From a virus (taxonomy: Duplodnaviria > Heunggongvirae > Uroviricota > Caudoviricetes): a DNA stretch of 51,967 nucleotides. Shown piece after piece: positions 36,087 through 51,967 of the stretch. Made by a program: the position numbers and the translations under genes. Within the stretch, counting starts at the first letter, position 1; every line of letters starts with the position of its first letter. The stretch lies in IMG/VR virus record IMGVR_UViG_3300028999_000002. One strand, given 5' to 3'. A model generated the notes under the pieces. The model made no database searches. It was not told the DNA's origin and saw only the letters and a list, made by a program, of their open reading frames with translations.

Positions 36087-36089
36087 AAA

Positions 36090-36416: not shown

Positions 36417-36560
36417 TTGTAGTTATCTCTCACCTCGCTGATACAGCAGGTGCAAATTGAGGAAACATCATGTACCGCAAATCAGAAGCGGAAACGTCAA
36501 AGAAGCCGAGTCAATGGATAACTGCGGGATAGGCTAGGACCAAGGAATCCCCAGACCCAG

Positions 36561-36593
36561 AAACGACAAAACCCGCTCGATGGCGGGTTTAAG
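36561..36593 (-). terminator. intrinsic terminator-like hairpin (AAACCCGC-n6-GCGGGTTT) upstream of the holin; candidate tR'
   Basis: Perfect 8-bp stem followed by a T-rich tract on the minus strand. Confidence 0.45.
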
Positions 36594-36707
36594 CTGTGTG
36601 GCGAAGTGAGCACACTTAACAGATTACGATATTTTTTGCGTACGCGTTAGTGTTTTGATAGAATTTTCAGCCACATAAAAATTCATTCTTATAATTCGGG
36701 ATATATA

Positions 36708-37883: not shown

Positions 37884-37885
37884 TA

Positions 37886-39100
37886 ATGACAATTGCTGAT
37901 GACTTATCAAGATTAGCGCAGATTATTAACGGAGCCTCAAGCAGAGTTGAGGGCTACTACACTGTCATAAGTCTTGAAGAAAGCATTGTTATTGTAAATA
38001 GTTCTGAAATAATTAGACTGTTACAATCTATAGGTTATAAAAAGGCAACAACCTGCATCGAAAATAATGAAATTTGGCTAGATCGCCAAGCTTCATCTTG
38101 GGATGATGCTATAATTTATGAGAATGTTGAGTCTTTTTGGTCTAGAGTAAACACCCAAAACGCTCTTCCGAAAAATTATATCATCGGAACGCCGTTAATA
38201 CTCCCTACTTCTAAGAATGAAAGCATCGAAAAAATCCATATTTTCTTTATGTGGAAAGATATCCTTTCATTAATTTCTGATCATCATAACAGTGACTGCT
38301 CTGTCTTATTTTTCACCAATGAAGACAAAAGTTATACAGTCGAACTCACGCATTTTTTACAATATAGCGAGATTAATCGCTTATCGAACTCGTCTCTTAA
38401 ATATGAAATTATAAAGGAGCTTCTCGACACAATAAAAATCAATGATTTACACAAAAGCGAGCGCAAGCTCGTTATACGCTCAGCCATAAACGAAGTATTT
38501 AAAGCAAATGGTACGTTCAATTTCTTTGACTTGCTTAACTCTACTGAACTCGTCAGGAAAAAATATGATGAACTATATGAGATTTACACAAAGAGGTTTT
38601 CTGTAAATAAAATTCTTAACGAACTCGATGAGAAAAATCTTGAGTTCACGAGTAAAATTAACGAATTCATATCATCTAATCAGACAAAAGCATTGACTAT
38701 TCCCGGTGCATTAATAGCAGCTGGTGGCTTAGTGAAGGCTAATGAAACAACCGAAGCAATATTGATTATCGCAGGACTTTGGATGATAAAAAAAGTCAAT
38801 TACATTTCTATTGAGATATTCAATGAAACATTCGACAACTTACGTTCTCGAGTGGAGTCCGCTTTCGATAAGTATTTAAAGTTTGAAGAAAATAAAGAAA
38901 TCAAAGATAATGCAGATAGTATTAAGAGTAGCATTACAGGTTTGATTGATAAAGCTAAAAAAAGGATGAGAACTGTTAAATATCTCGCATCAGCCATGTT
39001 TTATGGAGGCCTTATTTACGTTGGATATAAACAGTTCCCAGTCTTTTTTGAAAAATCGGCAGTAAATCTATTTTATTTTTTATGCCATACTATAAGCTAA
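37886..39100 (+). CDS. hypothetical membrane protein (C-terminal TM segments), co-operonic with the preceding gene
   Basis: Start 2 nt after the upstream stop (TAATAATG); hydrophobic segments near the C-terminus; AT-rich. Confidence 0.6.
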   Translation: MTIADDLSRLAQIINGASSRVEGYYTVISLEESIVIVNSSEIIRLLQSIGYKKATTCIENNEIWLDRQASSWDDAIIYENVESFWSRVNTQNALPKNYIIGTPLILPTSKNESIEKIHIFFMWKDILSLISDHHNSDCSVLFFTNEDKSYTVELTHFLQYSEINRLSNSSLKYEIIKELLDTIKINDLHKSERKLVIRSAINEVFKANGTFNFFDLLNSTELVRKKYDELYEIYTKRFSVNKILNELDEKNLEFTSKINEFISSNQTKALTIPGALIAAGGLVKANETTEAILIIAGLWMIKKVNYISIEIFNETFDNLRSRVESAFDKYLKFEENKEIKDNADSIKSSITGLIDKAKKRMRTVKYLASAMFYGGLIYVGYKQFPVFFEKSAVNLFYFLCHTIS

Positions 39101-39446
39101 CATTGCTAAACAGCCATCAACAAACCCCATTGCAGTTTGCAGTTCCTTCCTAATTGTGCCATCAGAGCATTTTCTCTTCTTCGCAATAGTGCGTAATGAG
39201 ATACCGATAACAAAGTGGGCGATGATGAGCTCATATTCCTCTGGTTTATACCTTCTCAACCGAGCCACACAACTGTCTATCATGATGCCTTCGTCATCAT
39301 CACACTGAATCCGTGACTTTTTGCCATGAGGTAAAAGTCCCTTGAAACCAGCCGCTATCGGCTGNNNNNNNNNNCCAGTCCACTCCGCTATTGTCTGAAG
39401 CAGCCCAAGCTCCCCAACGATCCATTACTTCATACATATCACGCAT
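39080..39446 (-). CDS. Q-like late antiterminator (Phage_antitermQ-type), interrupted by an N10 assembly gap
   Basis: N-terminal piece MRDMYEVMDRWGAWAASDNSGVDW upstream of the gap and a C-terminal HTH-containing piece (67-aa ORF) downstream; family assignment from memory. Confidence 0.55.
39365..39374. other. assembly gap (10 N) inside the Q-like gene
   Basis: Run of n characters. Confidence 0.99.
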
Positions 39447-39463
39447 CAACTTTCTCCACAAAA

Positions 39464-40459
39464 TCAGGCCAACACACCAATTGCCAGCGCACGATCGATA
39501 AAACGAAATATCAACTCCAGCTGGGAGCCATACTTCTCTTCAAATGCCACGGTATCCGCATGCAGCTCGTCGTGATGCTTTCTGCACAAAGGCAGCACAA
39601 AGAGATCATGCTCTTTTGTACCCATTCCCCCCTGACCGTGGCCTATCAGATGGTGGGGATCATCAGCAGGCTTTCCACAACATGCACACGGCTGCGTCTT
39701 AACCCAGCGCGTGTACTTTTCATTAACCCAGCGGCGACGTTTTGGGCGTAACATAAAAGACTCCGGCGACTCCGGATCCACTTTCAGCGCCAGCACCTTT
39801 TTAGCTTTATCCTGGATGATGCTGGTGGCAGGAACCGAAGGCACAAGGTCACTTTCCCGGGTGACAGATGGCACAACAGGCTTCGGTAATCTCAGTGCCT
39901 TACGGGCTGCACTTTCCGGTAAGGCATCCGCCAGATCATTACGAACCAGCCACCAGCACAGTTCCGGCATTGTCACAACGTGACTGTCATCAAAACCGAG
40001 ATCCCGACGCACGACAGACAACACCCAGCGGGCACAGTTATCCGTTGCCATTGATTCCAGCCGTTCCGTGAACTGGTCACGCAGCTGGTTATCGCAGTGC
40101 CAGCACAGACGAATTGCTCCCGGAGCGTGCCGCATTGTGGTCATGTTCTCGCTGTGCCAGTCAGAATGAGGCCACTGACAGCCCTTTTCACGAAGTAACC
40201 AGCTTTCAAGACATTCCACGCCACCAGCACGACGGATCACTGCCTCATTGCGGAACACGGTCCGAACGGCAGGATCATCCGCCAGCGGTTGTGATGCCGC
40301 CGGAACGGCACCACTGGCGAAAGATGAATAACGTTCCGGCTCTGGCTCCAGCAGGACACGCCCCTGCATAAACAGGGGCATCAGCTCTGAACCTGGCCTG
40401 AACAATACGATCCCCATACGCGGGGCAATTTCAGGCGTCAGTAGTGCTCTCACGGTCAC
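39464..40459 (-). CDS. DUF968-type protein with C-terminal HNH-like nuclease motif
   Basis: C-terminal …CACCGKPADDPHHLIGHGQGGMGTKEHDLFVLPLCRKHHDELH… Cys/His cluster; nin-region position. Confidence 0.6.
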   Translation of the reverse strand: MTVRALLTPEIAPRMGIVLFRPGSELMPLFMQGRVLLEPEPERYSSFASGAVPAASQPLADDPAVRTVFRNEAVIRRAGGVECLESWLLREKGCQWPHSDWHSENMTTMRHAPGAIRLCWHCDNQLRDQFTERLESMATDNCARWVLSVVRRDLGFDDSHVVTMPELCWWLVRNDLADALPESAARKALRLPKPVVPSVTRESDLVPSVPATSIIQDKAKKVLALKVDPESPESFMLRPKRRRWVNEKYTRWVKTQPCACCGKPADDPHHLIGHGQGGMGTKEHDLFVLPLCRKHHDELHADTVAFEEKYGSQLELIFRFIDRALAIGVLA

Positions 40460-40460
40460 C

Positions 40461-41258
40461 TCAATGAACGGTATCGAGTAGCTTTAACAGCTCAGGGAAT
40501 CGGGATTCGAAGAAATGCGGCTGCGTCTCGCGCGGATTTGCGGGACTGGTGATGTTCTTGCCGAACATGCAGCCTTTCGCCGTCAGCGACCAGAATTTTT
40601 TGATGTTGTTAATCGCGGTACGGCTGTATCGTTCGCGCTGCTCGACGATCCCCAGCTTCACCATCTGGTGATATGCCTGATTAGCTGTCAGGCGGATACC
40701 ATACTGCTTCAGCAGTGCACTCAGTGACAGCGTGGGGCGGCTTGAGCCATCAGGCGCGTCAGCAGGAGCATCAATGGCATAGCGCGGTGCCAGATTCGGT
40801 AAGCCAACAGCCTCCTGGAGTTTCTGACAGGCTCCAAGCACTGAAGAGTTAGACAGATTTAACTCCCGGCGCATAAAGTCCAGCAGAATCACGCCAGCCT
40901 GCATCTTGTCAGCAGCCTGTCCGGATAATTTTTCAGGTGCGCTGGTTACCATGTCGAAAGTACGGATCACCTTCAGATGGAATGACGGGCTGATCCACAT
41001 TGCATAGGCATACACCAGTTCTTTGCAGACATACGTCCCCTGGTTATTTCCGCCACGAATAACGTTAACTGGCTCTATATTGACCGAGTTGCAAATCTGC
41101 AACTCGCTTATTAAACGTTCAGTTTGCTCATTGCGGAGCCAGAATGCAGGCTTATGCTTATCCAGAGAATCGGCAGCCCTGTGCAGATCGTTCAGGCTGT
41201 AACGACCATAAGCATCACGACGAACTTCAATACCATCAATGACCATCAGATTATTCAT
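40461..41258 (-). CDS. KilA-N domain protein
   Basis: N-terminal KilA-N-like segment (…IDGIEVRRDAYGRYSLNDLHRAA…). Confidence 0.65.
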   Translation of the reverse strand: MNNLMVIDGIEVRRDAYGRYSLNDLHRAADSLDKHKPAFWLRNEQTERLISELQICNSVNIEPVNVIRGGNNQGTYVCKELVYAYAMWISPSFHLKVIRTFDMVTSAPEKLSGQAADKMQAGVILLDFMRRELNLSNSSVLGACQKLQEAVGLPNLAPRYAIDAPADAPDGSSRPTLSLSALLKQYGIRLTANQAYHQMVKLGIVEQRERYSRTAINNIKKFWSLTAKGCMFGKNITSPANPRETQPHFFESRFPELLKLLDTVH

Positions 41259-41277
41259 ACTTCGTTTCTCCTCTTAA

Positions 41278-41667
41278 TCAGGCGGCTGCACCCGCCGGTT
41301 TCTCGTACTTACTGATAGTGATCTCAACCTTCCCTTCCGGGATAACCGGTCCCCACTCCACCAGCATTCTTTTCACCTGACTGTCGTCTTCCCACACACC
41401 CGCGTGGGTCAGGGCGTCAAACAGCGCCTTGTTATAGTTGTCCAGATCGCGGATCCGGTTATCCGGAGGAAACAACACGATCTCCACTGAAGCAGGTGCC
41501 GACGTTGGTTTCGGCAGACGACGTAACTGCTCAACTATTGCTGCGCACGCCGCGCTCTGAAATTTTCGCCCCGCCTCGCTTATCAGGCTCTTACCAGCAA
41601 ATGCCCCTTTGTTGGGGTGTCGCCAGTACGTGTTCACACTGGGCGGGAAAGGAAGGATCAACTTCAT
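41278..41667 (-). CDS. rusA: Holliday junction resolvase RusA
   Basis: 129 aa with the RusA pattern (…LPFPPSVNTYWRH… …RIRDLDNYNKALFDALTHAGVWEDDSQV…). Confidence 0.85.
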   Translation of the reverse strand: MKLILPFPPSVNTYWRHPNKGAFAGKSLISEAGRKFQSAACAAIVEQLRRLPKPTSAPASVEIVLFPPDNRIRDLDNYNKALFDALTHAGVWEDDSQVKRMLVEWGPVIPEGKVEITISKYEKPAGAAA

Positions 41668-41990
41668 ACTTTCAGGCCCCTCTCATGTAACCAGTGGGCT
41701 GCACGCAACCTAGCGTTCTCCTCAGCGGCAAGCAGTGCGCGGATGATACCGACCGCTTCGCTGTCGTCGTCCTTCACTGCGGTATGAAGCGTGATCCCCC
41801 GGGCCACGCCACGCTTTATCGTGATGACGCCTTTTTTCTCCAGTGCGCGAAGATGCTCCACCGCTGCATTCACTGAACGGTATCCCAGCATGGTTGCCAC
41901 CTCCTGATTGGTTGGCGGGAAGCCACGTTCTTTCTGGTAAGAAATCAGCATATCCAGCACCTGCTGCTGGCATTGAGTTAACGTCGTCAT
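41664..41990 (-). CDS. LexA-N-terminal-type winged-helix DNA-binding protein
   Basis: …QQQVLDMLISYQKERGFPPTNQEVATMLGYRSVNAAVEHLRALEKKGVI… resembles the LexA DNA-binding domain; no peptidase domain. Confidence 0.5.
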   Translation of the reverse strand: MTTLTQCQQQVLDMLISYQKERGFPPTNQEVATMLGYRSVNAAVEHLRALEKKGVITIKRGVARGITLHTAVKDDDSEAVGIIRALLAAEENARLRAAHWLHERGLKV

Positions 41991-42640
41991 GCCGCCATCT
42001 CCCTGACCAGTTTTTCCGCCTGCTGGCGAACCTGTGCCAGAAAGGCCTCACCACATGCCTCAAGTTCATCGCGCCCGATGTAGCTGATTGCCGGTCCCTT
42101 CCAGGTCTTGTCGAAAACAGCAATAGCACCAGCGAAGAAAGCGCCTGTCGGCACCTGCTTCTCATCTTTCGGGATAAACCAGGCAGGCAGTTCAAAACCA
42201 ATACGCCCGCGAATAAAAGCAATATGGTCTGCATCTTCCGGCCACCACACTTCGCTGGTGGCAGCTTTGATCAGGAAAACATAGCGCCCGCCTTTATCAC
42301 GCATGGCACCGGCATGTTTCATGATGTAACGCATGCCGGTGATGTATTGCCCCTCATGCTGACTGGCGCGACTGTATGGGGGATTACCAAAGGCAGCACC
42401 TTTAAGCTCCGCAAGACGTTCTGACCAGTCATGCGCCAGCGCGTTGTCTTCCGCCGTGTAATACGCGGTACATTTGGCGTTATCACCGTCAGTAAACAGA
42501 TCCAGGACAAACGGGCCAAACAGGGTGTTAATTCCCCAGAAAATGTTATCCGGCGTGCGCCACTGATCGCCCACTTCCTTCAGTTCATGGGCTGGTTTGT
42601 TCCGCAGTTCCACCAGCGCCCGGCAATATTTATTACTCAT
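41987..42640 (-). CDS. phage DNA N6-adenine methyltransferase (Dam-like)
   Basis: NPPY motif (…GNPPYSRA…); start set at the Met with a GGGGG SD overlapping the upstream stop. Confidence 0.75.
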   Translation of the reverse strand: MSNKYCRALVELRNKPAHELKEVGDQWRTPDNIFWGINTLFGPFVLDLFTDGDNAKCTAYYTAEDNALAHDWSERLAELKGAAFGNPPYSRASQHEGQYITGMRYIMKHAGAMRDKGGRYVFLIKAATSEVWWPEDADHIAFIRGRIGFELPAWFIPKDEKQVPTGAFFAGAIAVFDKTWKGPAISYIGRDELEACGEAFLAQVRQQAEKLVREMAA

Positions 42641-43134
42641 TAAGCCCCCACGTAATTCCCTGACAGATACCACTCTTCACCCGATGCAGCGCGCTTGCTG
42701 CTTTTCCGTAAGCACCGCTCACGACGTGCCAGAAAATTGTTTCGTTCTGGCTGGGAGTGGCTTTCACGGAATGCCGCCATCCACACGGTTGCAGCACGAC
42801 GGTATAAGCCCCTTGACTCCAGTTCTTCAGCCTGGCGGGTCAGGCATAAAATCACCCGGGGATCGTTAGTGCCGACATAGAAATTGCGCACAGGTCTGGT
42901 TTCACGAACTGGTTGTGGTTCCGGCTCCTGCGCTCTCTCAGTCAGGCGCGGGAAATGTCTGCGTGTATCTCCTTCACAACGGTGAGCCACACGCCCACTC
43001 TGACGTAACTTGCTTGCTGACTGCAGAACGCGCTGCCGTGAGTAACCTGCAAAAGCATCCGCAATGTCTCCGGAAGTACAGCCCGGATGGGCTTCAATGA
43101 ATTTCTGAACGTCATTCAAAAGACTCATGCTCAC
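42640..43134 (-). CDS. hypothetical protein
   Basis: 164-aa ORF coupled to its neighbours; no recognisable family. Confidence 0.4.
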   Translation of the reverse strand: MSMSLLNDVQKFIEAHPGCTSGDIADAFAGYSRQRVLQSASKLRQSGRVAHRCEGDTRRHFPRLTERAQEPEPQPVRETRPVRNFYVGTNDPRVILCLTRQAEELESRGLYRRAATVWMAAFRESHSQPERNNFLARRERCLRKSSKRAASGEEWYLSGNYVGA

Positions 43135-44072
43135 CCCCTGAATCCTGCCGGGATCTGGCTGTAGTCCACATTGTCGTAACTGGCTTTGAAGTACGGGTCT
43201 TCGCGTTTTTCTGTGTACGTGCTGACGGACGGCGATAAGCGCAGGGAAAGCTCATCCCATTTTTCCCGCAGCTTCGACGGGCTGAGCACGTTACGGCACC
43301 AGAACGGATCGCGGCTGACGCGGCTGTACATCTCGCAGATTTGTTTGTGAGTACGACCATCCTGCACACACATCAGGCGAATTTCGTTTGCCCAGGCTGT
43401 CCAGTTCGGTTCTTTGGGACGAACCACCTCGCCGTCACATTCGGCAGCCTGCTCGTACAGGGCGATGATTTTTTTCCAGAGCCACTGTGCGCAGGTCAAA
43501 TCATCCTGCGTCCCCCACTGGCGCTTTTTAGGGCTGAATACAACCGCATCAGGATGGCGAGTTAAAAAATCCTGTTCAGCCGTCTGCGTGTCCGGTTGCG
43601 AAGCGTCCGGACGAGAAGTTTTTTTATCTGACGGATCATGTTTTGATTTTACTGACGGATCCCCGCCAGATTCTGACGGGTGAAAACCCGCTTTTTTGCC
43701 AGATTTCGACGCATCAAATTTTGACGGGTCAGATTTTGATGCGTCAGATTTTGACGGGTCAGAATCTGACAGTTGAGAAAATGCCGCTGCCTGAAGCTTC
43801 GCAACGTTAAGCTGATAAACATTCGACGCATTGCGGTTACCCTGGCGACGCGCCTTACGCGTTAACCAGCCTTCTGCTTCCAGCCGTGCGATAGCCGTTC
43901 TGACGGTACTCATCCCCGCGCCAATCTGACGGGCAATGGTTTTAATTGATGGCCAGCACACACCTTCGTCATTACTGAAATCAGCCAGGCGGGCCATAAT
44001 TGCCACGCTGGATAACTTCATGCCTGATGCAGCGCAACCATCCCATACATAGCCGGTTAATTTAGTGCTCAT
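43131..44072 (-). CDS. replication initiator protein (O-like) with N-terminal HTH and internal iterons
   Basis: N-terminal winged-helix-like segment; internal DNA iterons encode the repeated SDPSKSDASKSDPSKFDASKS peptide, as in lambda O/ori. Confidence 0.7.
   Translation of the reverse strand: MSTKLTGYVWDGCAASGMKLSSVAIMARLADFSNDEGVCWPSIKTIARQIGAGMSTVRTAIARLEAEGWLTRKARRQGNRNASNVYQLNVAKLQAAAFSQLSDSDPSKSDASKSDPSKFDASKSGKKAGFHPSESGGDPSVKSKHDPSDKKTSRPDASQPDTQTAEQDFLTRHPDAVVFSPKKRQWGTQDDLTCAQWLWKKIIALYEQAAECDGEVVRPKEPNWTAWANEIRLMCVQDGRTHKQICEMYSRVSRDPFWCRNVLSPSKLREKWDELSLRLSPSVSTYTEKREDPYFKASYDNVDYSQIPAGFRG
43626..43775. repeat. ori-type iteron array (6-8 copies of ~15 bp GATTTTGACGGGTCA-like) inside the O-like gene
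   Basis: gattctgacgggtga / gatttcgacgcatca / aattttgacgggtca / gattttgatgcgtca / gattttgacgggtca / gaatctgacagttga. Confidence 0.75.
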
Positions 44073-44081
44073 GACCGACCT

Positions 44082-44420
44082 CTATTTCCCTGAATTTACG
44101 ACGAAACTGTTCGAGCGGACTGAAGCATTCATGCTCATAACCTTCGCGGAGGTAGATAACCCGTTGTGTTTCCGGCTCCCAACGAATGACTCTGACGGGC
44201 ACTCCGTAGTGATCTTTGAACCAGCGGTTAACTTGTCGCAAAGGACTGTCTCCTTCTGCCGGTTGAAATCACCCACAGCCCACTCTGCAAAGCTGTGGGT
44301 TACAATTTCCCTGTCACCTGGTACATTCACTGCATAGCAATATTCCACCTTCGCTTTTCCACCCGGTACCGGAAGCGCAATCAGTTGCGAGCGACGGTAG
44401 TGTGTTGTTAAACTGTTCAT
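44082..44420 (-). CDS. hypothetical protein
   Basis: 112-aa ORF whose start overlaps the upstream stop by 4 nt; C-terminal half has poor protein-like composition. Confidence 0.3.
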
Positions 44421-44974
44421 GCGTTAGTTTCTCCACAACCAGAAGCAATCGACGCCACGACGCCCGGAGCTGCACACTCGCGGGCGTCATTACTTTCTGA
44501 AATGCAAAAAATTTTGTAGACAAGTGCTGCATGCTCCTGCAGCTTCGAAATTGAGAGATACAGCTCGTCGTTAATTGCTGTCTTCTCATGCGGTTCCACT
44601 ACACCGTCTTCGATTGCTGAACGAATCTGTTTTGAATAACTGCCGATCTGTTCAATGACTTCCAGCAGACGCTGGTTAATATCGGCGTTGTCCACATCCT
44701 CGACGTCAGGAAGAGACACAAAGACGCCATTTGCAGACTGCGCCACAGCATCAGCAATGAAGTGAGTGCCACCAGCACGCTGTAAAACCATTGCCCATCC
44801 CAGCGGGAAAATCTGATCGCCATCTGCACGAAGGCGGTTGAATAAAGCGTTTTCTGTTACATCGAGCCAGTCAGCCGCTTCAGCGTAACCACCCGGCAAC
44901 GCCGCGATAGTTTTTCTGACAGCTTTCACGTACCACTCAGGCTGTTTTTCTATTTTCCAGTGATGCTTACCCAC
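44417..44974 (-). CDS. CII-like phage regulatory protein (Phage_CP76-like)
   Basis: 185 aa in the cII position downstream of cro; family guess from memory. Confidence 0.45.
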
Positions 44975-45227
44975 GGTTCACCTCCTGTTCCTGTGGTTTA
45001 AACCCATTCTGATTTTGGCTAGATTGAAAACGTGCCGGATAAAGAATCTGCATTTCGCTGACTTCACCCTTAAAAAAATTGGCTAAACGTTCTGCAAGCT
45101 CGATAGATGGAATCTGCTCCAGCCTCTCAATACGACTCAACGTCGCTGGATTGACTTGAACACCCGCAGCAACATGCTGCAAAGTGAAACCATGCGCCTT
45201 ACGCACATTTCGTAATGGTGATTGCAT
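44967..45227 (-). CDS. cro: Cro-like HTH (XRE-family) regulator
   Basis: 86 aa with HTH (…HGFTLQHVAAGVQVNPATLSRIE…), divergent from cI across an operator region. Confidence 0.75.
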   Translation of the reverse strand: MQSPLRNVRKAHGFTLQHVAAGVQVNPATLSRIERLEQIPSIELAERLANFFKGEVSEMQILYPARFQSSQNQNGFKPQEQEVNRG

Positions 45228-45241
45228 ATACCCTCCAAATA

Positions 45242-45304
45242 TTGCGCGTTATGCATGTTATTTCACGCAATTATTTTGCGCAAGTTGATTTGCTTATCAC
45301 GCAA
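45242..45304. promoter_or_regulatory. OR-like operator/promoter region between cro and cI with TTGC-N7-GCAA repeats
   Basis: TTGCGCGTTATGCAT, CACGCAA/TTGCGCAA, TTGCTTATCACGCAA within about 60 bp. Confidence 0.6.
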
Positions 45305-45324
45305 TAAAGAAATGTAATAAACGC

Positions 45325-46017
45325 ATGAACATAGGAAACCGAGTCAGACAACTTCGCCAAGCGAAGAACATGAAAATCGCCGATCTCGCTGAAGCAATAG
45401 GAGTAGATGCGGCGAACATCTCGCGCTTAGAAACGGGTAAGCAAAAACAATTTACCGAACAAACACTGAGTAATATTGCCAAGAGCTTAGGTGTTGATAT
45501 TGCTGATCTCTTTACCTCTGCCCTCAAAAGTAATACTGTATATAAAAACAGTAATAATGAGGATGTTGCGCAGGTGAAGGATGTGTTCCGTATTGAAATG
45601 CTGGATATCAGTGCCAGTGCGGGAAATGGCCTTATCCAGGGCGGTGATGTCATTGATGTGATTCATGCCATCGAATACAGAACTGATAATGCTGTATCAA
45701 TGTTCGGCGGACGACCAGCCAATCACATCAAAGTTATCAACGTTCGTGGGGACAGTATGTGTCCAACCATTGAGCCAGGAGATCTCATCTTCGTTGATGT
45801 CAGCATCAATCAGTTTGATGGTGATGGTATATATGTCTTTGGTTTTGATGACAAAATATACGTTAAAAGACTTCAAATGATTCCTGACAAACTGCTGGTG
45901 ATTTCTGATAACCAGATTTACCGTGAATGGGGAATTACTAGCGAAAACGAACACCGATTCATGGTCTTTGGAAAGGTCTTAATCAGTCAGTCGCAAACCC
46001 TTAAGAGACATAATTAA
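45325..46017 (+). CDS. cI: CI-type repressor (HTH + S24 LexA-like autopeptidase domain)
   Basis: 230 aa; N-terminal HTH (…NMKIADLAEAIGVDAANISRLETGK…) and C-terminal S24 peptidase-like region (…VRGDSMCPTIEPGDLIFVD…YVKRL…). Confidence 0.9.
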   Translation: MNIGNRVRQLRQAKNMKIADLAEAIGVDAANISRLETGKQKQFTEQTLSNIAKSLGVDIADLFTSALKSNTVYKNSNNEDVAQVKDVFRIEMLDISASAGNGLIQGGDVIDVIHAIEYRTDNAVSMFGGRPANHIKVINVRGDSMCPTIEPGDLIFVDVSINQFDGDGIYVFGFDDKIYVKRLQMIPDKLLVISDNQIYREWGITSENEHRFMVFGKVLISQSQTLKRHN

Positions 46018-46029
46018 CCTCAATATCCC

Positions 46030-46053
46030 ATCCATCGGCCACCGAAAGGTGGC
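46030..46053 (+). terminator. intrinsic terminator downstream of cI (GGCCACC-GAAA-GGTGGC + T-run)
   Basis: Perfect hairpin followed by TTTTTATT. Confidence 0.7.
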
Positions 46054-46064
46054 TTTTTATTACC

Positions 46065-46100
46065 CATCATTTTGCATATATCGCAATATTACTTGCATAT
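46065..46100. promoter_or_regulatory. OL-like operators (TTGCATATATCGCAA and TTGCATATCTCGCAA)
   Basis: Two 15-bp sites with the same TTGC-N7-GCAA architecture as the OR region. Confidence 0.6.
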
Positions 46101-46294
46101 CTCGCAATTTAATTTTATCTTTTGTTCCAGACCAACTACAGGATTACAACAAAATCTGGTTGCAAAACGGTGCATGTGTCGTAAGCGGTCAGTAAATGTC
46201 AAAAACGAACAGGCAGGACGCCCACGAAGTAGCAGCCTGGGGCATATGAAGTCCAGGATGATTCGTTAGCGGATGATTTCAGTGGAGAGAATAG

Positions 46295-46603
46295 ATGAAT
46301 GAGCAGGATTTGAAGCATGTGATCGCATTGTTGCTGGAAGACGCTAAACGTTTGCAGCAGATAGAGCCAAATGCAGGCACTGAGGCCCGTATTTTGTTAG
46401 CAAAACAGGCATTAAAGACTTGCGAGGCGCAAGACCCTGATCGAACCAAGTTCATGAATTTCATGGCTAACACGATCACCCCACTGCCATGCAATGGAGA
46501 GAGGGTGAGCCGTGTTTATCACGACACAATGGTTAAGGCATTAAGAATCGAGCTTGATGGGCTTAGGCGTAAGATCGTGATGAACAAAATCGTTGCCAAC
46601 TAA
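46295..46603 (+). CDS. hypothetical protein (first gene of the leftward early operon)
   Basis: 102-aa ORF with SD; not N-like. Confidence 0.4.
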   Translation: MNEQDLKHVIALLLEDAKRLQQIEPNAGTEARILLAKQALKTCEAQDPDRTKFMNFMANTITPLPCNGERVSRVYHDTMVKALRIELDGLRRKIVMNKIVAN

Positions 46604-46882
46604 GGAAGCAGACGGAAGTAAGCATGCGCTTTGTTCAAATTTGCAGACAAATATATTTGCGTCAACACCAGCACTGTTAGCAATGGAAAAAGTTTGATCA
46701 AGGATTTGTTGGCAGTTCATTGTGCTTTTGAGGATATATCCCTCTGGAATCAGTCTGCAGCAGCTATCGTCAGACTCTTTGATTGTTTTCTGGTACAGAA
46801 AGTTAAGCATTAATTCTTCAAATTTTTTGGTCTGTTCGGCTGTTGCTTCAAACAGACGAACGTGAACATAAAACTGGTTCAT
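46541..46882 (-). CDS. hypothetical protein encoded antisense to the early-left operon
   Basis: 113 aa from MNQFYVHV…; protein-like composition; overlaps the 3' end of the plus-strand ORF. Confidence 0.3.
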   Translation of the reverse strand: MNQFYVHVRLFEATAEQTKKFEELMLNFLYQKTIKESDDSCCRLIPEGYILKSTMNCQQILDQTFSIANSAGVDANIFVCKFEQSACLLPSASLVGNDFVHHDLTPKPIKLDS

Positions 46883-47161
46883 TAGGTTTCCTTGCTGGCT
46901 GTGTGAGAACTCCAGCATACCACCGAGCCTGAAGTGGTGAAAAGACAGGCAATAGTTTCATTGCTGTGTGTAGTCCTGGCGGTACCAGTTTGTACCCTTG
47001 CTTCCGGCTGGTACCGCTCTTTTTACAAAACAGAGAAGAGCATCACCGGACGACGGGCTCATAACCCAATCCATCCGGGCGGCTGCCACCGCAGGTGTTC
47101 TTCTCTGTTTTGTGGAGAAACCAACCGACCTTGCAGGGTCGATATGATGAGGAGCAGCAAA

Positions 47162-47524
47162 ATGGCTAGCGAACGCGGTACTGATGTGCAGGCATTTATC
47201 GGGGAGCTGGACGGCGGCGTATTTGAAACCAAAATCGGCGCAGTTCTCAGTGAAGTCGCTTCCGGTGTGATGAACACGAAAACCAAAGGTAAGGTCTCAC
47301 TCAACCTGGAAATCGAACCATTTGATGAGAACCGTGTGAAAATCAAACACAAACTCTCATATGTTCGCCCGACTAACCGCGGGAAAATTTCCGAAGAAGA
47401 CACCACCGAAACGCCGATGTATGTCAATCGCGGTGGGCGCCTGACTATTCTGCAGGAAGACCAGGGACAATTACTGACTCTTGCCGGTGAGCCTGACGGA
47501 AAACTCCGCGCAGCAGGTCATTAA
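47162..47524 (+). CDS. hypothetical prophage protein (120 aa; possibly YfdP-like)
   Basis: Start at MASERG with GAGGAG SD; the upstream in-frame extension of the ORF is Cys-rich and non-protein-like. Confidence 0.5.
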   Translation: MASERGTDVQAFIGELDGGVFETKIGAVLSEVASGVMNTKTKGKVSLNLEIEPFDENRVKIKHKLSYVRPTNRGKISEEDTTETPMYVNRGGRLTILQEDQGQLLTLAGEPDGKLRAAGH

Positions 47525-47589
47525 TATCGTTCTTAATTAACTGATTATTTACCTCATCACTGAATATCTTTATATAGTGAGGACTTATT

Positions 47590-48414
47590 ATGTCTCAGAA
47601 CTTAGACGCAACCGCAATTAATCAAATCCATGCCCTTATTTCTGCTCAGGGTGTTAATGAAATTATCAGTAAGATTGGTGCCGACGCAGTGGCATTACCT
47701 GAAAATTTCCGCATTCATGATCTGGAAAAATTTAATTTAAATCGCTTCCGTTTCCGTGGCGCGCTTTCCACTGCCTGCATCGATGACTTTACCCGTTATT
47801 CTAAAGATCTTGCAGATGAAGGCACCCGCTGCTTTATCGATGCCGATAATATGCGTGCCGTCAGTGTTCTTAACCTGGGTACTATTGATGAACCAGGTCA
47901 CGCAGATAATACCGCCACTCTCAAACTGAAAAAGACAGCACCGTTCTCTGCACTGTTGTCTGTTAACGGCGAGCGTAACTCCCAGAAGTCACTGGCAGAA
48001 TGGATTGAAGACTGGGCCGACTACCTTGTGGGCTTTGATGCTAATGGTGACGCCATTCAGGCAACCAAAGCGGCTGCGGCGATCCGTAAAATCACAATTG
48101 AAGCGAACCAGACTGCTGATTTTGAAGACAATGACTTCAGCGGCAAACGCTCCCTGATGGAGTCTGTCGAAGCGAAGACCAAAGACATTATGCCAGTGGC
48201 ATTTGAATTTAAATGCGTTCCGTTTGAAGGCCTGAAAGAACGTCCGTTTAAATTACGCCTCAGCATTATCACTGGCGATCGTCCTGTACTGGTACTACGC
48301 ATTATTCAGCTGGAAGCAGTGCAGGAGGAAATGGCTAACGAATTTCGTGATCTGCTTGTTGATAAATTCAAAGACAGCAAAGTAGAAACCTTTATTGGTA
48401 CTTTCACCGCCTGA
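47590..48414 (+). CDS. hypothetical prophage protein (274 aa; possibly YfdQ/DUF2303-like)
   Basis: Length and position match the CPS-53-type yfdQ gene from memory; acidic. Confidence 0.55.
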
Positions 48415-48542
48415 TTTCATTACTGCAAATGCCCCTGCGGGGGCATTTATGGAAACGTAATTGACTCAATAATCGCCTGATGGCGAGGGTTTTCTTTAAC
48501 CAAAATTCAGCGCGGTGCAGCGCATATAACGTGGAGAACAAA

Positions 48543-49079
48543 ATGTCATTTATTAAAACTTTTTCTGGGAAGCATTTTTATTATGACAAGATAAATAAAG
48601 ACGACATCGTTATTAACGATATCGCGGTTTCCCTTTCAAATATCTGCCGCTTTGCAGGACACCTTTCACACTTCTATAGCGTCGCCCAACATGCGGTGCT
48701 TTGCAGCATGCTGGTACCGCAGGAATTTGCTTTTGAAGCATTAATGCATGATGCAACAGAAGCGTATTGCCAGGACATCCCCGCAGCACTGAAACGCCTT
48801 CTTCCTGACTATAAACGGATGGAAGAAAAAATAGACGCCGTAATCCGTGAGAAATACGGGTTACCTCAGGCTATGAGCACGCCCGTGAAATATGCCGATC
48901 TCATCATGCTGGCAACCGAACGCCGCGATCTCGGGCTTGATGATGGCTCTTTCTGGCCAGTATTGGAAGGTATCCCGGCAACAGAGATGTTCGAAGTTGT
49001 TCCTCTGGCTCCTGGCCATGCCTACGAGATATTTATGGAACGTTTTAAAGAGCTGCATAAGATACATAAGCAATCCTGA
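48543..49079 (+). CDS. yfdR: HD-domain phosphohydrolase (YfdR-like 5'-deoxynucleotidase)
   Basis: 178 aa from MSFIKTF…; HD-domain metal-binding pattern (…HLSHFYSVAQHAVLCS…EALMHDATEAYCQDIP…). Confidence 0.7.
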   Translation: MSFIKTFSGKHFYYDKINKDDIVINDIAVSLSNICRFAGHLSHFYSVAQHAVLCSMLVPQEFAFEALMHDATEAYCQDIPAALKRLLPDYKRMEEKIDAVIREKYGLPQAMSTPVKYADLIMLATERRDLGLDDGSFWPVLEGIPATEMFEVVPLAPGHAYEIFMERFKELHKIHKQS

Positions 49080-49119
49080 CAGCGAAATTAACTAGTGAAA
49101 TAGTTTTGTAGCAAAAGAA

Positions 49120-49380
49120 ATGAGGTTATCAAAAATGCTTCAAATGCTGACACTTGAGGAATGGGCTGCGGAAAAATTTAGGAGTAATCCTCCAAGTGTG
49201 TCCACATTGCGTCGTTATGCTAAGCAGAATTTATTTTGTCCACCAGCAATGAAACAAGGTCGACTCTGGCGAGTACGTGAGGACGCAGAGTTAGTTGGGG
49301 AATTAGTTACTCCAGTAATCAAGAAAAGTGATTCTATTATTCTGCAAAGGATTTTAAGCAATGGCAGCCAGACCACGTAA
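49120..49380 (+). CDS. xis: excisionase (lambda Xis-like)
   Basis: …MLTLEEWAAEKFRSNPPSVSTLRRYAKQNLFCPPAMKQGRLW… parallels lambda Xis; overlaps the int start as in lambda (start may be one of two downstream Mets). Confidence 0.7.
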   Translation: MRLSKMLQMLTLEEWAAEKFRSNPPSVSTLRRYAKQNLFCPPAMKQGRLWRVREDAELVGELVTPVIKKSDSIILQRILSNGSQTT

Positions 49381-50488
49381 AAATAATGTTTCAGTACCTA
49401 ACTTGTATCCGCTTTATAGTAGAAAAGTAAATAAAGTCTATTGGCGATATAAGCATCCAGTGACCGGGAAATTTCATTCGTTGGGCACAAATGAAGCTGA
49501 AGCTATTGCTATTGCCACTGAAGCTAACACTCGTCTGGCTGAGCAAAGAACCCGGCAGATTCTAGCTATCAGTGATAGGATCGCAACCAGCAAAGGAAAA
49601 GCGATCACAACGTCAACCTGGTTAGATCGCTATCAAGCGATCCAGGATGACAGGCTCAAAAGTGGTGATATAAGACTCAACACCTATAAGCAAAAAGCTA
49701 AACCAGTATCCTTGCTCAGAGAACGAGCAGGAATGAAGTTGATCTCATCCGTTGATGTTAGAGATATAGCACAATTGCTTGATGAGTATATTGCAGCTGG
49801 ACAGCCTAGAATGGCCCAAGTCGTTAGGTCTGTATTGATCGATGTGTTTAAGGAAGCACAGCATTATGGCGAAGTTCCGCCAGGGTATAACCCTGCTCTT
49901 GCGACGAAGCAACCCAAAAGAAAAATTACCCGTCAACGCCTCAGCCTGGAAGAATGGCAAAAAATATTCGATATAGCAGACGCCAGTCATCGTTACATGG
50001 GAAATGCCATGCTCCTAGCTTTGGTCACTGGGCAGCGTTTGGGAGATATATCCAAAATGAAATTTAGTGATATTTGGGAAGATCATCTTCACGTCATTCA
50101 GGAAAAGACTGGAAGCAAAATCGCTATCCCTCTTTCTCTTCGCCTCAATGCGATTAACTGGAGTTTACGCGATGTAATAGCCCGCTGCCGTGACTATGCA
50201 GTCAGCCCATACCTAGTGCATTTTTTCCGTTCAACTTCACAAGCAGAACGTGGGGCACAGGTTAAATCCAATACATTGACGATGAACTTTAGTAAAGCGA
50301 GAGATTTAGCAGGAATTGACTGGGGTGATGGCTCACCCGCAACATTCCATGAACAAAGATCGTTATCTGAACGCCTGTACAAGGAGCAAGGGATAGATAC
50401 CAGAAAGCTACTTGGGCATAAAACACAACAACAAACCGATCGTTACCATGATGACCGAGGGAAAGGTTGGAGCAAAGTAGCTTTGTGA
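49361..50488 (+). CDS. int: tyrosine integrase, lambda-type (prophage)
   Basis: 375 aa with lambda Int-like N-terminus and catalytic region (…LLGHKTQQQTDRYHDDRG…). Confidence 0.9.
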   Translation: MAARPRKNNVSVPNLYPLYSRKVNKVYWRYKHPVTGKFHSLGTNEAEAIAIATEANTRLAEQRTRQILAISDRIATSKGKAITTSTWLDRYQAIQDDRLKSGDIRLNTYKQKAKPVSLLRERAGMKLISSVDVRDIAQLLDEYIAAGQPRMAQVVRSVLIDVFKEAQHYGEVPPGYNPALATKQPKRKITRQRLSLEEWQKIFDIADASHRYMGNAMLLALVTGQRLGDISKMKFSDIWEDHLHVIQEKTGSKIAIPLSLRLNAINWSLRDVIARCRDYAVSPYLVHFFRSTSQAERGAQVKSNTLTMNFSKARDLAGIDWGDGSPATFHEQRSLSERLYKEQGIDTRKLLGHKTQQQTDRYHDDRGKGWSKVAL

Positions 50489-50698
50489 GCGTTTAAGTTT
50501 CTCAATCCCACATTAATTATCTCATCACACATGTAACAGGCCAAACAGACTGCTCTGAGCGACGAACCGTTGTTGACCAGTAACGCCATAGAGTATATTC
50601 AGTAAGTGTTCCAATGTATATAAGAAATGCGCTGTGTATATTTTTAATTCAAAATAGTTTGAAGCACAATCATGAAACAGATTCTTATGAATACAAAA

Positions 50699-51814
50699 TT
50701 AAATTAAATCAAATAGCCCATGTTCATCTATAGCCTTTGAACTAATTAAGTTCGCGGCTTCTATGTCATTGTCACTTGCCTCAGAAATAAGGAAAAATGA
50801 ATCAACATGATTTTGCAAAATAATTTCCTTATACTTCTTGAGCCATTGTAATTTACCTGTAGTGAACAATACTTTACGCGGTAGCAAAATACGGCTAAAA
50901 ACTGATGGAAGATACTCACTTCTATTAAATGGAATAAAAGGGTCGCCTAAAGAAAGAATAGTTAGACGATTAAATTCACCGTGCGAATTCAATTTTTCAG
51001 CTGATTTGGCTATACCACTTGGTAAAAAAACACCTGTCTTGATACCGTTGCGTAAAGCAACAACAGCCATCATTTTATCAAAGGCAGTACCTCCAAATAA
51101 TAAGGAATATCCTTTTTTAACAGAAAGATCAATAGTATCAAGAACAACTTGTTTTTCTATATCACTTGGTGACGTGCTCGAAATTATCGAAAGATCAAAA
51201 TCAGTAAATAACTGCCCAGTATAATAAAGATTTTTGCCGGTGAAAGTTGACAACTTTAAAGGAAACATTTTATCATCATGCTTAATTTCAGATACATTAA
51301 GATCTGTTAAGGATGGATAGTTAAAGTTTGGTGAGGCTTTTCCGTGTTTATTATTTTTTGATGCCTGCGGACTAAAAACTAGAATTTCATTTTTATTATT
51401 ACACAGGTAATCCTGTATCATTTTTTTTACAATATCCCAATCAAGACCACCGTGACCACAACCTAAAGCTGGCAGGGTGATTGTTTTTCCATGTTTATTA
51501 TCCAAATATTTCGAGAGCCAATGCAGTCCTTTTTCGATATATTCGTACTTAGACTTATTTCTCCAATGATCCTTGGTGGGAAAGTTTATGATTTCTATTT
51601 CCTTACCATACGTATCATTACCTTTCCAAACAGCTGGTCTTCCTGGAGATATTTCTCCTTTTTTACACAGCAATACGTATTCATTATACATTTCAGGAAA
51701 CTTATTCTTAAAAGCAAAAGCAACCCCTGCCCCCATTACACCAACACAATTAACTGTATTAATTCTAATGTCAGCAGCATAATCGAAAAAATCACCATCA
51801 ACATATCTAATCAT
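50699..51814 (-). CDS. two-domain protein: N-terminal TARG1/DarG-type macro domain fused to a C-terminal DprA/SLOG-like Rossmann domain
   Basis: Start at ATG 51814 with a perfect AAGGAGG SD 5 nt upstream; macro motifs (…VNCVGVMGAGVAFAFKNKF… and …LPALGCGHGGLDWDIV…); C-terminal …LLFGGTAFDKMMAVVALRNGIKTGVFLPSGI… resembles the DprA core; AT-rich. Confidence 0.65.
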   Translation of the reverse strand: MIRYVDGDFFDYAADIRINTVNCVGVMGAGVAFAFKNKFPEMYNEYVLLCKKGEISPGRPAVWKGNDTYGKEIEIINFPTKDHWRNKSKYEYIEKGLHWLSKYLDNKHGKTITLPALGCGHGGLDWDIVKKMIQDYLCNNKNEILVFSPQASKNNKHGKASPNFNYPSLTDLNVSEIKHDDKMFPLKLSTFTGKNLYYTGQLFTDFDLSIISSTSPSDIEKQVVLDTIDLSVKKGYSLLFGGTAFDKMMAVVALRNGIKTGVFLPSGIAKSAEKLNSHGEFNRLTILSLGDPFIPFNRSEYLPSVFSRILLPRKVLFTTGKLQWLKKYKEIILQNHVDSFFLISEASDNDIEAANLISSKAIDEHGLFDLI

Positions 51815-51967
51815 AAAACCTCCTTTGGTCAGAGTATACATCCTTATTTCTGGCTCTTCAATTCTATTGTCAAAAACTTTTACAAAGTCTGCATCAGTAA
51901 AACTGATGGCGCATTTTAAAATTAAAATCAATATGTCCATATCAAACGTTATATTTGTTATTTTTTG

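What the first reader, a model, noticed from the sequence alone, without database searches (positions are those of the whole stretch)
50699..51814. Macro-domain (TARG1/DarG-type) fused to a DprA/SLOG-like domain, AT-rich, immediately outside the prophage int end
The gene has a perfect AAGGAGG SD and low GC. The N-terminal motifs (…CVGVMGAGVA…FK.KF… and …LGCGHGGLDW…) fit the TARG1/DarG macro family (ADP-ribose binding/hydrolysis); the C-terminal half resembles the DprA/SLOG Rossmann fold (nucleotide-ligand binding). Macro and SLOG domains recur in ADP-ribose or cyclic-nucleotide based immune signalling and in toxin-antitoxin antitoxins. The window ends about 150 bp upstream of the start, so operon partners cannot be seen.
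Basis: partly seen in the sequence, partly recalled or inferred. Interest (0 to 1): 0.7.

Follow-up and report, generated by a model that had tools for sequence, protein, structure and literature searches.

The report
Prophage DarG antitoxin with DprA-like domain
This gene encodes an antitoxin-type enzyme that should strip ADP-ribose off DNA; it carries an unusual DNA-repair-like second domain and belongs to an undescribed variant of the known DarT/DarG toxin-antitoxin phage-defence system, carried as cargo by an E. coli prophage.

Summary

The unseen partner was recovered from seven 99.9%-identical E. coli genomes. It is a 448-aa DarT ADP-ribosyltransferase fused to an HD phosphohydrolase domain. 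All 10 other loci examined, in several bacterial orders, pair the same two genes.

The gene is not outside the prophage. It lies between attL (inside icd) and intE, the slot that holds Lit in K-12 e14.

The DprA-like domain replaces the canonical DarT-binding domain of DarG (hhalign probability 0.1%).

The last 153 bp of the window are a decayed piece of a second darT-HD gene. This locus is a chimera: an intact toxin of one lineage (42% identical to the P2 version) next to an antitoxin of another (85% identical). Both are under purifying selection.

Verdict: a new variant of a known kind, DarTG2-like, apparently uncharacterised. What the HD and DprA-like domains do is inferred, not shown.

The parts
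50699..51814 (-). darG-like antitoxin gene, 371 aa (macro + DprA-like domain); the stop codon is 50699-50701
   Evidence: ORF and translation; full-length homologues; dN/dS 0.14-0.16
51350..51814 (-). N-terminal DarG/TARG1-type macro domain (residues 1-155). K81 corresponds to the catalytic K80 of T. aquaticus DarG. N22 and the GCGHGG loop are invariant in the family.
   Evidence: Pfam PF01661 E 3e-17; PADLOC DarG 195 bits and NCBIfam DarG 225 bits, N-terminal half only; PDB 5m31 and 5m3i; invariant columns
51320..51349 (-). Flexible interdomain linker (residues 156-165)
   Evidence: The only segment with pLDDT < 50 is residues 152-165
50702..51319 (-). C-terminal DprA-like (SLOG superfamily) Rossmann domain, residues 166-371. 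It sits where canonical DarG has its DarT-binding domain.
51819..51825 (-). Shine-Dalgarno AAGGAGG, 4 nt before the ATG
   Evidence: Read from the sequence
51815..51967 (-). 3' end of a decayed second darT-HD gene (the HD-domain half of 'toxin B'), now in frame with the macro ORF. It continues beyond the window end.
   Evidence: blastx of the about 700-bp spacer in the identical APEC O2-211 sequence against the P2-borne DarT-HD: 45% over 65 aa (E 2e-11) and 53% over 49 aa (E 6e-10), with stops and frameshifts. HD-profile scores are 28.4 and 23.4 bits; 0 of 200 shuffles reach them.
50482..50698 (.). Junction between the conserved prophage backbone (end of intE) and the variable cargo; the intE and darG-like genes converge here
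   Evidence: Prophages 99.6% identical through intE (strains A42, MS1657, VTB96929v) lose similarity at window position about 50481 and carry a different gene there
49361..50488 (+). intE-type integrase of the e14-like, icd-inserted prophage (context)
   Evidence: ORF; annotated intE in identical genomes; same gene order as in K-12 e14

Best explanation
The gene encodes the antitoxin of a two-gene, DarTG2-like toxin-antitoxin / phage-defence module. An e14-type prophage carries the module as cargo between its attachment site in icd and its integrase.

Shown by computation:
- The N-terminal domain is a DarG-type macro domain with the catalytic lysine intact.
- The C-terminal domain has the DprA/ShosA fold and is unrelated to the DarT-binding domain of canonical DarG.
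- The gene's constant partner is a DarT2-like ADP-ribosyltransferase that keeps the equivalents of catalytic R51 and E160 and is fused to an HD domain with an intact H..HD..H..DD motif.
- Both genes are under purifying selection.

Inferred:
- DarT-HD ADP-ribosylates thymidines in single-stranded DNA, which blocks replication of phage and host.
- The macro domain removes the adduct and so keeps the toxin harmless until infection upsets the balance.
- The DprA-like domain most likely puts the hydrolase on its substrate, single-stranded DNA, and may engage RecA. It would then neutralise the damage rather than the toxin, as the DprA-like antitoxin ShosA does.
- The role of the HD domain is open: a second nucleic-acid or adduct-processing activity, or a regulatory one.

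This particular locus is a chimera. It was probably made by a deletion between two tandem systems, which left toxin A next to antitoxin B.
For: Macro domain. K81, N22 and the G118-G122 loop are invariant in 51 homologues.

DprA/ShosA fold.

The C-terminal domain is not the canonical one. The DarG profiles match only residues 1-163. hhalign of the DprA-like domain against the canonical domain gives probability 0.1%, while the canonical domain hits the M. tuberculosis DarG chain 7yk3_B at E 1e-20.

Partner:
- In 6 of the 7 genomes that are 99.9% identical, an intact 448-aa DarT+HD gene lies between icd and this gene.
- The same pairing occurs in 8/8 loci from genome contigs, in a Klebsiella IncF plasmid and in a P2-like prophage, usually with a 4-7 bp gene overlap.
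- It also occurs in 9 metagenome loci found by searching from the toxin side.
- The DarT domain is closest to Thermus DarT2 (7omv, E 5e-13), not E. coli C7 DarT1 (E 0.59), and R51/E160 are conserved.
- The HD motif is invariant.

Selection: dN/dS is 0.24 for the toxin and 0.16 for the antitoxin. The C-terminal domain (0.13-0.16) is as constrained as the macro domain.

Mobile and accessory: 7 + 3 of 5426 E. coli genomes carry it. The slot is variable and holds Lit in K-12.

ShosA precedent: it binds ssDNA and RecA, does not bind its toxin, and is required for neutralisation (PMC12961424, PMC11961720).
Against: - No activity was measured for any of the four domains.
- The window itself does not show the toxin, and one of the seven identical genomes (MDR_56) has it split by IS50R, so in this strain the gene could be an orphan.
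- The toxin now next to it is not its co-evolved partner: 42% against 85% identity.
- The window protein's own C-terminal domain is near neutral (pI 6.1), although the family median is 9.0, which weakens the DNA-binding inference for this copy.
- DarT-HD also occurs with a canonical DarT-DarG pair and no DprA-like domain (6 loci), so the two accessory domains are not obligately linked.
- DprA residues known to contact ssDNA were compared only by motif (R308 in 'SR' against the DprA 'RNR'), not by a computed structural superposition.
Confidence: 0.72

Rival explanations
1. The DprA-like domain is a toxin-binding domain, giving classical type II neutralisation. It would replace the canonical DarG C-terminal domain because the toxin changed, and it would clamp the HD or DarT domain of DarT-HD rather than bind DNA or RecA.
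For: It occupies the position of the DarT-binding domain of canonical DarG. The two genes overlap by 4-7 bp, as in translationally coupled pairs. The domain is basic in most family members (median pI 9.0), while the HD half of the toxin is acidic (pI 4.8-5.8). Toxin and antitoxin identities fall in parallel across most loci.
Against: In the window lineage the antitoxin sits next to a toxin only 42% identical to its original partner, yet both stay under purifying selection. This is easier to explain if neutralisation is enzymatic or DNA-directed. DarT-HD exists without any DprA-like domain in the three-gene loci. The closest structural relative, ShosA, does not bind its toxin.
Confidence: 0.3
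2. The gene acts as an orphan antitoxin or counter-defence. The prophage keeps the macro protein to erase DNA ADP-ribosylation made by DarT toxins of the host or of competing elements, like phage AdfM; the neighbouring toxin would be irrelevant or decaying.
For: The gene's original toxin has decayed to a remnant. In MDR_56 the remaining toxin is cut by IS50R, and in S1-SRB-02-B the P2-borne toxin is split. Phage macro proteins that counter DarTG2 are known (PMC13309987).
Against: Six of seven genomes keep an intact upstream toxin, with dN/dS 0.24 against Citrobacter. Across the family the toxin is present in every locus with enough context. The C-terminal domain has no match in 50,697 deposited phage genomes and no confident match among predicted viral structures.
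Confidence: 0.12
3. The protein is a nucleotide-signal sensor or processor. The SLOG-type domain would bind a cyclic or linear ADP-ribose-derived messenger and the macro domain would bind or degrade it, as in Thoeris-like signalling systems.
Confidence: 0.04

Closest known systems
DarG of DarTG2 systems (T. aquaticus, M. tuberculosis, EPEC; NCBIfam NF048014)
   Same: The N-terminal macro domain is 38-42% identical to solved DarG macro domains and keeps the catalytic lysine. The gene is encoded directly after a DarT2-like gene in a two-gene mobile module.
   Different: The C-terminal half is not the DarT-binding, ssDNA-mimicking domain (7yk3_B) but a DprA-like Rossmann domain. The whole-protein score of 225 bits is below the curated cut-off of 250. 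The toxin carries an extra HD domain and also scores below the DarT cut-off, 135 against 150.
E. coli DarTG2 used in phage-defence experiments (locus found through the published cloning primer in PMC11257639)
   Same: Macro-domain antitoxin next to a DarT gene in an E. coli prophage hotspot.
   Different: That system has a 193-aa DarT without an HD domain and a 323-aa DarG. Its C-terminal half matches neither the DprA-like nor the M. tuberculosis-type profile.
ShosA, the DprA-like antitoxin of ShosTA (PDB 8zva)
   Different: Only 16% identity. ShosA has no macro domain, and its partner is a phosphoribosyltransferase toxin, not DarT. No ShosT gene is present here.
DprA/Smf (PF02481, TIGR00732), the recombination mediator of natural transformation
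   Different: The window protein gives no Pfam DprA hit. It lacks the flanking SAM and winged-helix domains of DprA. The clade is small and almost always fused to a DarG macro domain: 40 representatives in 1.84 billion proteins.
Lit of K-12 e14 and other cargo of the icd-intE slot
   Same: Same position in the same prophage family, between attL in icd and intE. Lit is a known phage-exclusion gene.
   Different: Unrelated proteins. The slot holds ymfD-ymfE-lit in K-12, an Sll1717-family P-loop ATPase in A42 and MS1657, and DarT-HD plus macro-DprA here.

Membership tests
DarG antitoxin (DarTG2; NCBIfam NF048014 equivalog) | N-terminal TARG1/DarG-type macro domain with the catalytic lysine | tested here: met
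   Pfam Macro E 3e-17; 5m31 E 2.7e-31 and 5m3i E 1.8e-30; K81 aligns with TaqDarG K80 and is invariant in 51 homologues
DarG antitoxin (DarTG2; NCBIfam NF048014 equivalog) | Whole-protein score above the curated cut-off, with a full-length match to the model | tested here: not met
   225.1 bits against a cut-off of 250; only model positions 1-162 of 338 are matched. PADLOC DarG matches positions 1-160 of 329. Canonical DarGs from class II loci score 349-448 bits over the full length.
DarG antitoxin (DarTG2; NCBIfam NF048014 equivalog) | C-terminal DarT-binding domain homologous to the M. tuberculosis DarG C-terminal domain (7yk3_B) | tested here: not met
DarG antitoxin (DarTG2; NCBIfam NF048014 equivalog) | Encoded next to and downstream of a DarT ADP-ribosyltransferase gene | tested here: met
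   Not visible inside the window. It is met in 7/7 genomes 99.9-100% identical across the locus (one of them IS-disrupted) and in every other locus examined.
DarG antitoxin (DarTG2; NCBIfam NF048014 equivalog) | Hydrolyses ADP-ribosyl-thymidine on ssDNA and neutralises DarT in vivo | not testable with these tools
   Needs enzymology and co-expression assays
DarT toxin (partner gene; NCBIfam NF048013, Pfam PF14487) | DarT domain with the catalytic Arg and Glu; score above the equivalog cut-off | tested here: inconclusive
   Pfam DarT E 5e-40. The R51/E160 equivalents are present. The NCBIfam score is 135 bits, below the 150 cut-off, and the protein carries an extra 230-aa HD half.
DprA/Smf (PF02481, TIGR00732) | DprA Rossmann-like fold | tested here: met
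DprA/Smf (PF02481, TIGR00732) | Sequence match above the Pfam/TIGRFAM thresholds; SAM and C-terminal winged-helix domains | tested here: not met
   The window protein has no PF02481 hit at E <= 1. 17/51 homologues hit at E < 0.01; of the family members whose scores were checked against the threshold, one distant member passes (32.6 against 29.6 bits). The architecture is macro + Rossmann only.
DprA/Smf (PF02481, TIGR00732) | Binds ssDNA and loads RecA | not testable with these tools
   Indirect hints only: the family median pI is 9.0 and R308 is invariant in a motif resembling the DprA RNR
ShosTA (ShosA antitoxin) | DprA-like antitoxin paired with a ShosT phosphoribosyltransferase toxin | tested here: not met
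SLOG superfamily | SMF/DprA-LOG type Rossmannoid fold | tested here: met
Thoeris-like ADPr signalling (macro or SLOG ThsA) | Adjacent TIR (ThsB) signal generator | tested here: not met
   No such gene in any annotated or ORF-scanned neighbourhood
e14-type prophage cargo (attL-intE slot) | Lies between the icd attachment site and intE, inside the prophage limits, in a slot whose content varies between near-identical prophages | tested here: met
   In APEC O2-211 the icd 3' remnant and iraM mark the far end of the prophage. The K-12 e14 feature starts inside icd and holds ymfD, ymfE and lit in this slot. A42 and MS1657 carry a P-loop ATPase there.

The most novel reading that the evidence does not exclude
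This is a mechanistically distinct DarTG class in which neither accessory domain is decorative. The antitoxin would not sequester its toxin. Through a ShosA-like DprA domain it would be recruited to ssDNA and RecA, coupling adduct removal to recombinational repair and making the state of ssDNA or RecA during phage replication the trigger. The HD domain of the toxin would process the ADP-ribosyl-DNA adduct, for example to a phosphoribosyl stub, or the DNA itself, into a lesion that phage macro or NADAR counter-defence enzymes cannot erase.
Probability: 0.15. Interest if true: 0.8.

Novelty: new variant of a known kind. Interest (0 to 1): 0.55.

Why it matters
DarTG is one of the few defence systems that act by chemically modifying phage DNA. 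Its known antitoxins neutralise the toxin both by erasing the mark and by binding the toxin.

This variant is widespread but thinly populated: Enterobacterales, Vibrionales, Oceanospirillales, a Desulfobacterales genome assembled from a metagenome, plasmids and two prophage hotspots. It differs in two ways:
- The toxin-binding domain is replaced by a DprA-like domain whose nearest structural relative, ShosA, is the antitoxin of an unrelated system and works through ssDNA and RecA.
- An HD hydrolase is added to the toxin.

If the DprA-like domain works as in ShosA, DprA-type 'repair' domains would be a reusable antitoxin part shared between unrelated toxins. The apparent mix-and-match in this locus (toxin A next to antitoxin B, both under selection) would then have a simple explanation: neutralisation acts on the damage, not on the toxin.

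The locus also adds a third kind of cargo to the e14 icd-intE defence slot.

Tried and rejected
- Sequence searches of the C-terminal domain against PDB found nothing meaningful: the single protein and the A1 and A2 profiles gave only chance hits. The fold had to be predicted instead.
- Foldseek of the C-terminal domain against predicted viral structures gave no match at E <= 0.001. The afdb50 library was not available.
- tblastn of the C-terminal domain against 50,697 phage genomes found no match. Plasmids gave one record.
- Four literature searches (DarT3/DarG3/DarT-HD; DarT+DarG+DprA; DarTG+'HD domain'; SLOG+DprA+macro) found no description of this architecture. 'DarG3' in PMC13069673 is an ARH-like antitoxin with a helicase, which is a different thing. 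The LeRoux 2022 paper is not in the library. Its DarTG2 was located through a primer in a later paper and is a different architecture.
- Expecting the attR copy of icd inside the window: blastn of icd against the window found nothing. The structural half of the window prophage is unrelated to that of APEC O2-211. Only the last 17 kb or so of the window (about 34710-51967, running through int) is shared with these genomes.
- I first supposed that the HD and DprA-like domains always co-occur. Searching from the toxin side rejected this: 6 loci have DarT-HD + canonical DarT + canonical DarG.
- Promoter and terminator scans of the locus were no richer than shuffled sequence and were not used.
- There is no tRNA in the window.

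Full report
**1. The observation**

Window 50699-51814 (minus strand) is an ORF of 371 codons beginning MIRYVDGDFF. AAGGAGG lies at 51825-51819, four bases before the ATG. GC is 0.315-0.36 across the gene, against 0.42-0.51 in the adjoining prophage DNA.

The frame stays open upstream to the end of the window. This is why RefSeq annotates a 413-aa product from ATG 51940 in identical genomes. All homologues start at the MIRY/MLEF position, and the extension is explained in section 6.

The gene is real. The protein search returned 2739 proteins at E <= 1e-5, and among the best 120 listed nearly all are full-length relatives at 45-92% identity. dN/dS is 0.14-0.16 against two diverged copies.

**2. 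The two domains**

Residues 18-132 match Pfam Macro (E 3e-17). PADLOC DarG (195 bits) and NCBIfam antitoxin_DarG (225 bits, cut-off 250) match, but only over residues 1-163 of the protein and the first half of each model.

The best solved relatives are the macro domains of T. aquaticus DarG (E 2.7e-31, 42% identity) and M. tuberculosis DarG (E 1.8e-30), and then TARG1. K81 aligns with the catalytic K80 of TaqDarG and is invariant in 51 homologues, as are N22 and the GCGHGG loop.

The C-terminal half has no Pfam hit of its own. AlphaFold2 models it with high confidence: pLDDT 92.7 and pTM 0.90 for residues 166-371. In the full-length model the only disordered stretch is the linker, residues 152-165.

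- Other SLOG members: MCP 11.0, LOG proteins about 9.9, YpsA 7.7

Seventeen of the 51 homologues hit Pfam DprA at E < 0.01. One distant family member passes the gathering score.

**3. What the C-terminal domain is not**

I took canonical DarG proteins from the class II loci of section 5; they match the NCBIfam model over its full length at 349-448 bits. A profile of their C-terminal domains hits chain B of 7yk3 (annotated 'DNA ADP-ribosyl glycohydrolase'; chain A is the DNA ADP-ribosyl transferase), which I take to be the M. tuberculosis DarG C-terminal domain bound to DarT, at E 1.3e-20. The same profile has no similarity to the DprA-like domain: hhalign probability 0.1% and -4.7 bits on the window protein.

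So this protein has a different domain where DarG normally has its toxin-binding, ssDNA-mimicking domain (its role is described in 10.1101/2023.12.14.571748 and PMC11257639).

The DprA-like clade is small. Forty representatives at 50% identity score E <= 1e-3 among 1.84 billion proteins. Most of the full-length ones (about 370-385 aa) carry the domain at about residues 165-370, that is, fused to the macro domain; the rest are mostly short fragments.

**4. The partner and the location**

The last 1.5 kb of the window is 99.9% identical to seven complete E. coli genomes.

In APEC O2-211 the gene order is: icd, a 448-aa 'DarT family' gene, a non-coding stretch of about 700 bp (582 bp as annotated from the over-long 413-aa start), this gene, then intE and xisE. 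The 448-aa protein is DarT (PF14487, E 5e-40, residues 13-213) plus an HD domain (PF01966, residues 290-361). It is intact in six of the seven genomes and split by IS50R in MDR_56.

Its DarT domain is closest to Thermus DarT2 (7omv, E 5e-13), not to E. coli C7 DarT1 (E 0.59). It keeps the equivalents of R51 and E160. The HD half has an invariant H..HD..H..DD pattern and weak similarity to HDIG, GlnD and Cas3 HD domains.

The prophage ends at a 168-bp icd remnant next to iraM, 42 kb away, just as e14 does in K-12, where the annotated element starts inside icd. The gene is therefore inside the prophage, in the attL-intE slot.

That slot holds ymfD, ymfE and the phage-exclusion gene lit in K-12. 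Prophages that are 99.6% identical up to the last codons of intE hold an Sll1717-family P-loop ATPase there.

**5. How general the pairing is**

A scan of one genome per species with the C-terminal-domain profile gave nine loci. Eight had enough context: Citrobacter, Oceanospirillum, Vibrio, Enterobacter, Trabulsiella, Xenorhabdus, a Desulfobacterales genome assembled from a metagenome, and an uncultured bacterium. All eight have a 443-449-aa DarT+HD gene immediately upstream, usually overlapping by a few bases.

The same pair sits next to repE on a Klebsiella IncF plasmid. It also sits in the tail-fibre/tail-sheath hotspot of a P2-like prophage in three E. coli genomes.

Searching from the other side, with the HD half against metagenomes, gave two contexts:
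- Class I: nine loci with DarT-HD followed by macro-DprA.
- Class II: six loci with DarT-HD followed by a canonical short DarT (157-210 bits, above the cut-off, in the two that were scored) and a canonical full-length DarG (five of the six scored; in the sixth the gene is cut by the contig end).

The HD-bearing toxin therefore does not strictly require the DprA-like domain.

**6. This locus is a chimera**

The window antitoxin is 85% identical to the P2-borne and plasmid-borne copies. The intact toxins next to them are only 42% identical. In all other comparisons toxin and antitoxin diverge in parallel.

The about 700 bp between the toxin and this gene contains two stretches, in two frames and with stop codons, that match the HD half of the P2-type toxin. 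They show 53% identity over 49 aa and 45% over 65 aa (E 6e-10 and 2e-11). The HD profile scores them at 28.4 and 23.4 bits, and 0 of 200 shuffles reach those scores. The second stretch runs into the start of the macro gene; it is the window's last 153 bp and the spurious N-terminal extension.

Directly after the stop codon of the intact toxin there is a weaker, collinear trace of a macro-domain N-terminus (YEELFEFDADFMINIVTVIVV against GDFFDFDADIRVNTVNCVGV). It scores 7.2 bits, and 0 of 200 shuffles reach that score.

The simplest history is two tandem systems, T_A-G_A and T_B-G_B, and a deletion from within G_A to within T_B. The same arrangement occurs in Citrobacter sp. Cu233 (92% DNA identity). 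There the toxin has dN/dS 0.24 and the antitoxin 0.16, while the spacer has drifted to 84% identity. The non-cognate pair has thus been maintained. The G_A trace is suggestive only.

**7. Mechanism**

These points are shown by computation:
- a catalytically complete DarG-type macro domain;
- a DarT2-like, catalytically complete toxin partner;
- mobile, rare, defence-slot genomic contexts;
- purifying selection on all parts.

These points are inferred. The module is a DarTG2-like toxin-antitoxin / abortive-infection system. The toxin ADP-ribosylates thymidine in ssDNA and the macro domain reverses this; the chemistry of DarTG2 is described in PMC11543638 and PMC13309987.

For the DprA-like domain, the best-supported model is substrate targeting to ssDNA, possibly with engagement of RecA. 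The model rests on ShosA. ShosA binds ssDNA through arginines shared with DprA, binds RecA, does not bind its toxin, and needs DNA binding to neutralise (PMC12961424, PMC11961720). This model would also explain why a toxin only 42% identical to the original partner can be tolerated.

Four facts count against it or limit it:
- The window copy of the domain is near neutral (pI 6.1), against a family median of 9.0.
- Residue equivalence with the DNA-contacting arginines of DprA was judged only by motif.
- The alternative, that the domain clamps the acidic HD half of the toxin, is not excluded.
- The function of the HD domain is open.

**8. Comparison with what is known, and novelty**

Defence-finder profiles would label the pair DarTG, and some family members are already named DarG by NCBI.

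The experimentally studied systems differ:
- The E. coli DarTG2 located through its cloning primer has a 193-aa DarT and a 323-aa DarG without either accessory domain.
- DarTG1 uses a NADAR antitoxin.
- DarHTG/'DarG3' uses an ARH-like antitoxin plus a helicase.

I found no paper describing a DarT-HD toxin or a macro-DprA antitoxin. The library lacks many subscription papers, so an earlier comparative-genomics mention cannot be excluded. I rate it a new variant of a known kind, of moderate interest.

Noticed in passing
L019, L025, L028, L030, L031, L032 (metagenome loci): These are three-gene loci: DarT-HD, then a canonical short DarT (157-210 bits in the two scored), then a canonical full-length DarG (349-448 bits in the five scored; the sixth is cut by the contig end). 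The HD-bearing DarT can therefore ride on an ordinary DarTG pair. I found no description of this arrangement.
   Followed up: partly
window 51815-51967; L003 7317-8023: RefSeq/PGAP annotates the macro gene as 413 aa (WP_198559745.1). The extra 42 residues are the in-frame tail of a decayed darT-HD pseudogene. The about 700-bp 'spacer' also holds a faint trace of a lost antitoxin N-terminus.
   Followed up: yes
L001 11989-13419 (E. coli MDR_56): IS50R is inserted in the DarT-HD toxin gene, splitting it into a DarT fragment and an 'HD domain-containing protein' and leaving the antitoxin as an orphan in that strain.
   Followed up: yes
L002 10116-11449 (S1-SRB-02-B) versus L017 3616-4950 (LR-28): The P2-prophage copy of the toxin is split into 89-aa and 340-aa pieces in one strain and is an intact 444-aa gene in another. 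Toxin inactivation recurs.
   Followed up: partly
L014 2912-4471 and L015 2862-4145 (strains A42, MS1657): Near-identical prophages carry an 'Sll1717 family P-loop ATPase' in the icd-intE slot instead of the DarT-HD/macro pair. It is a candidate defence gene and was not examined.
   Followed up: no
L013 15600-17489 (APEC O2-211): A 629-aa DUF262-domain protein sits at the other end of the same prophage, just inside the icd remnant. This is a second cargo position; from memory, K-12 e14 has mcrA there.
   Followed up: no
window 36708-39100 (+): A pair of plus-strand genes lies among minus-strand prophage early genes: a 391-aa NA37/NdpA-like nucleoid-associated protein (Pfam E 1e-23) followed by a 404-aa protein with no Pfam hit. 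It looks like an inserted two-gene module.
   Followed up: no
window 1-34700 versus 34710-51967: Only about 17 kb at the right-hand end of the window (early-region genes through int, plus the cargo) is shared with the seven DarT-HD-carrying genomes. The structural half of the window prophage is unrelated to that of APEC O2-211, so the prophages are mosaic.
   Followed up: partly
L041 3622-5179 (E. coli RM10809-3): The experimentally used E. coli DarTG2 lies in a P2-like prophage. Its DarG C-terminal half matches neither the M. tuberculosis-type nor the DprA-like profile, so DarG C-terminal domains fall into at least three unrelated kinds.
   Followed up: partly
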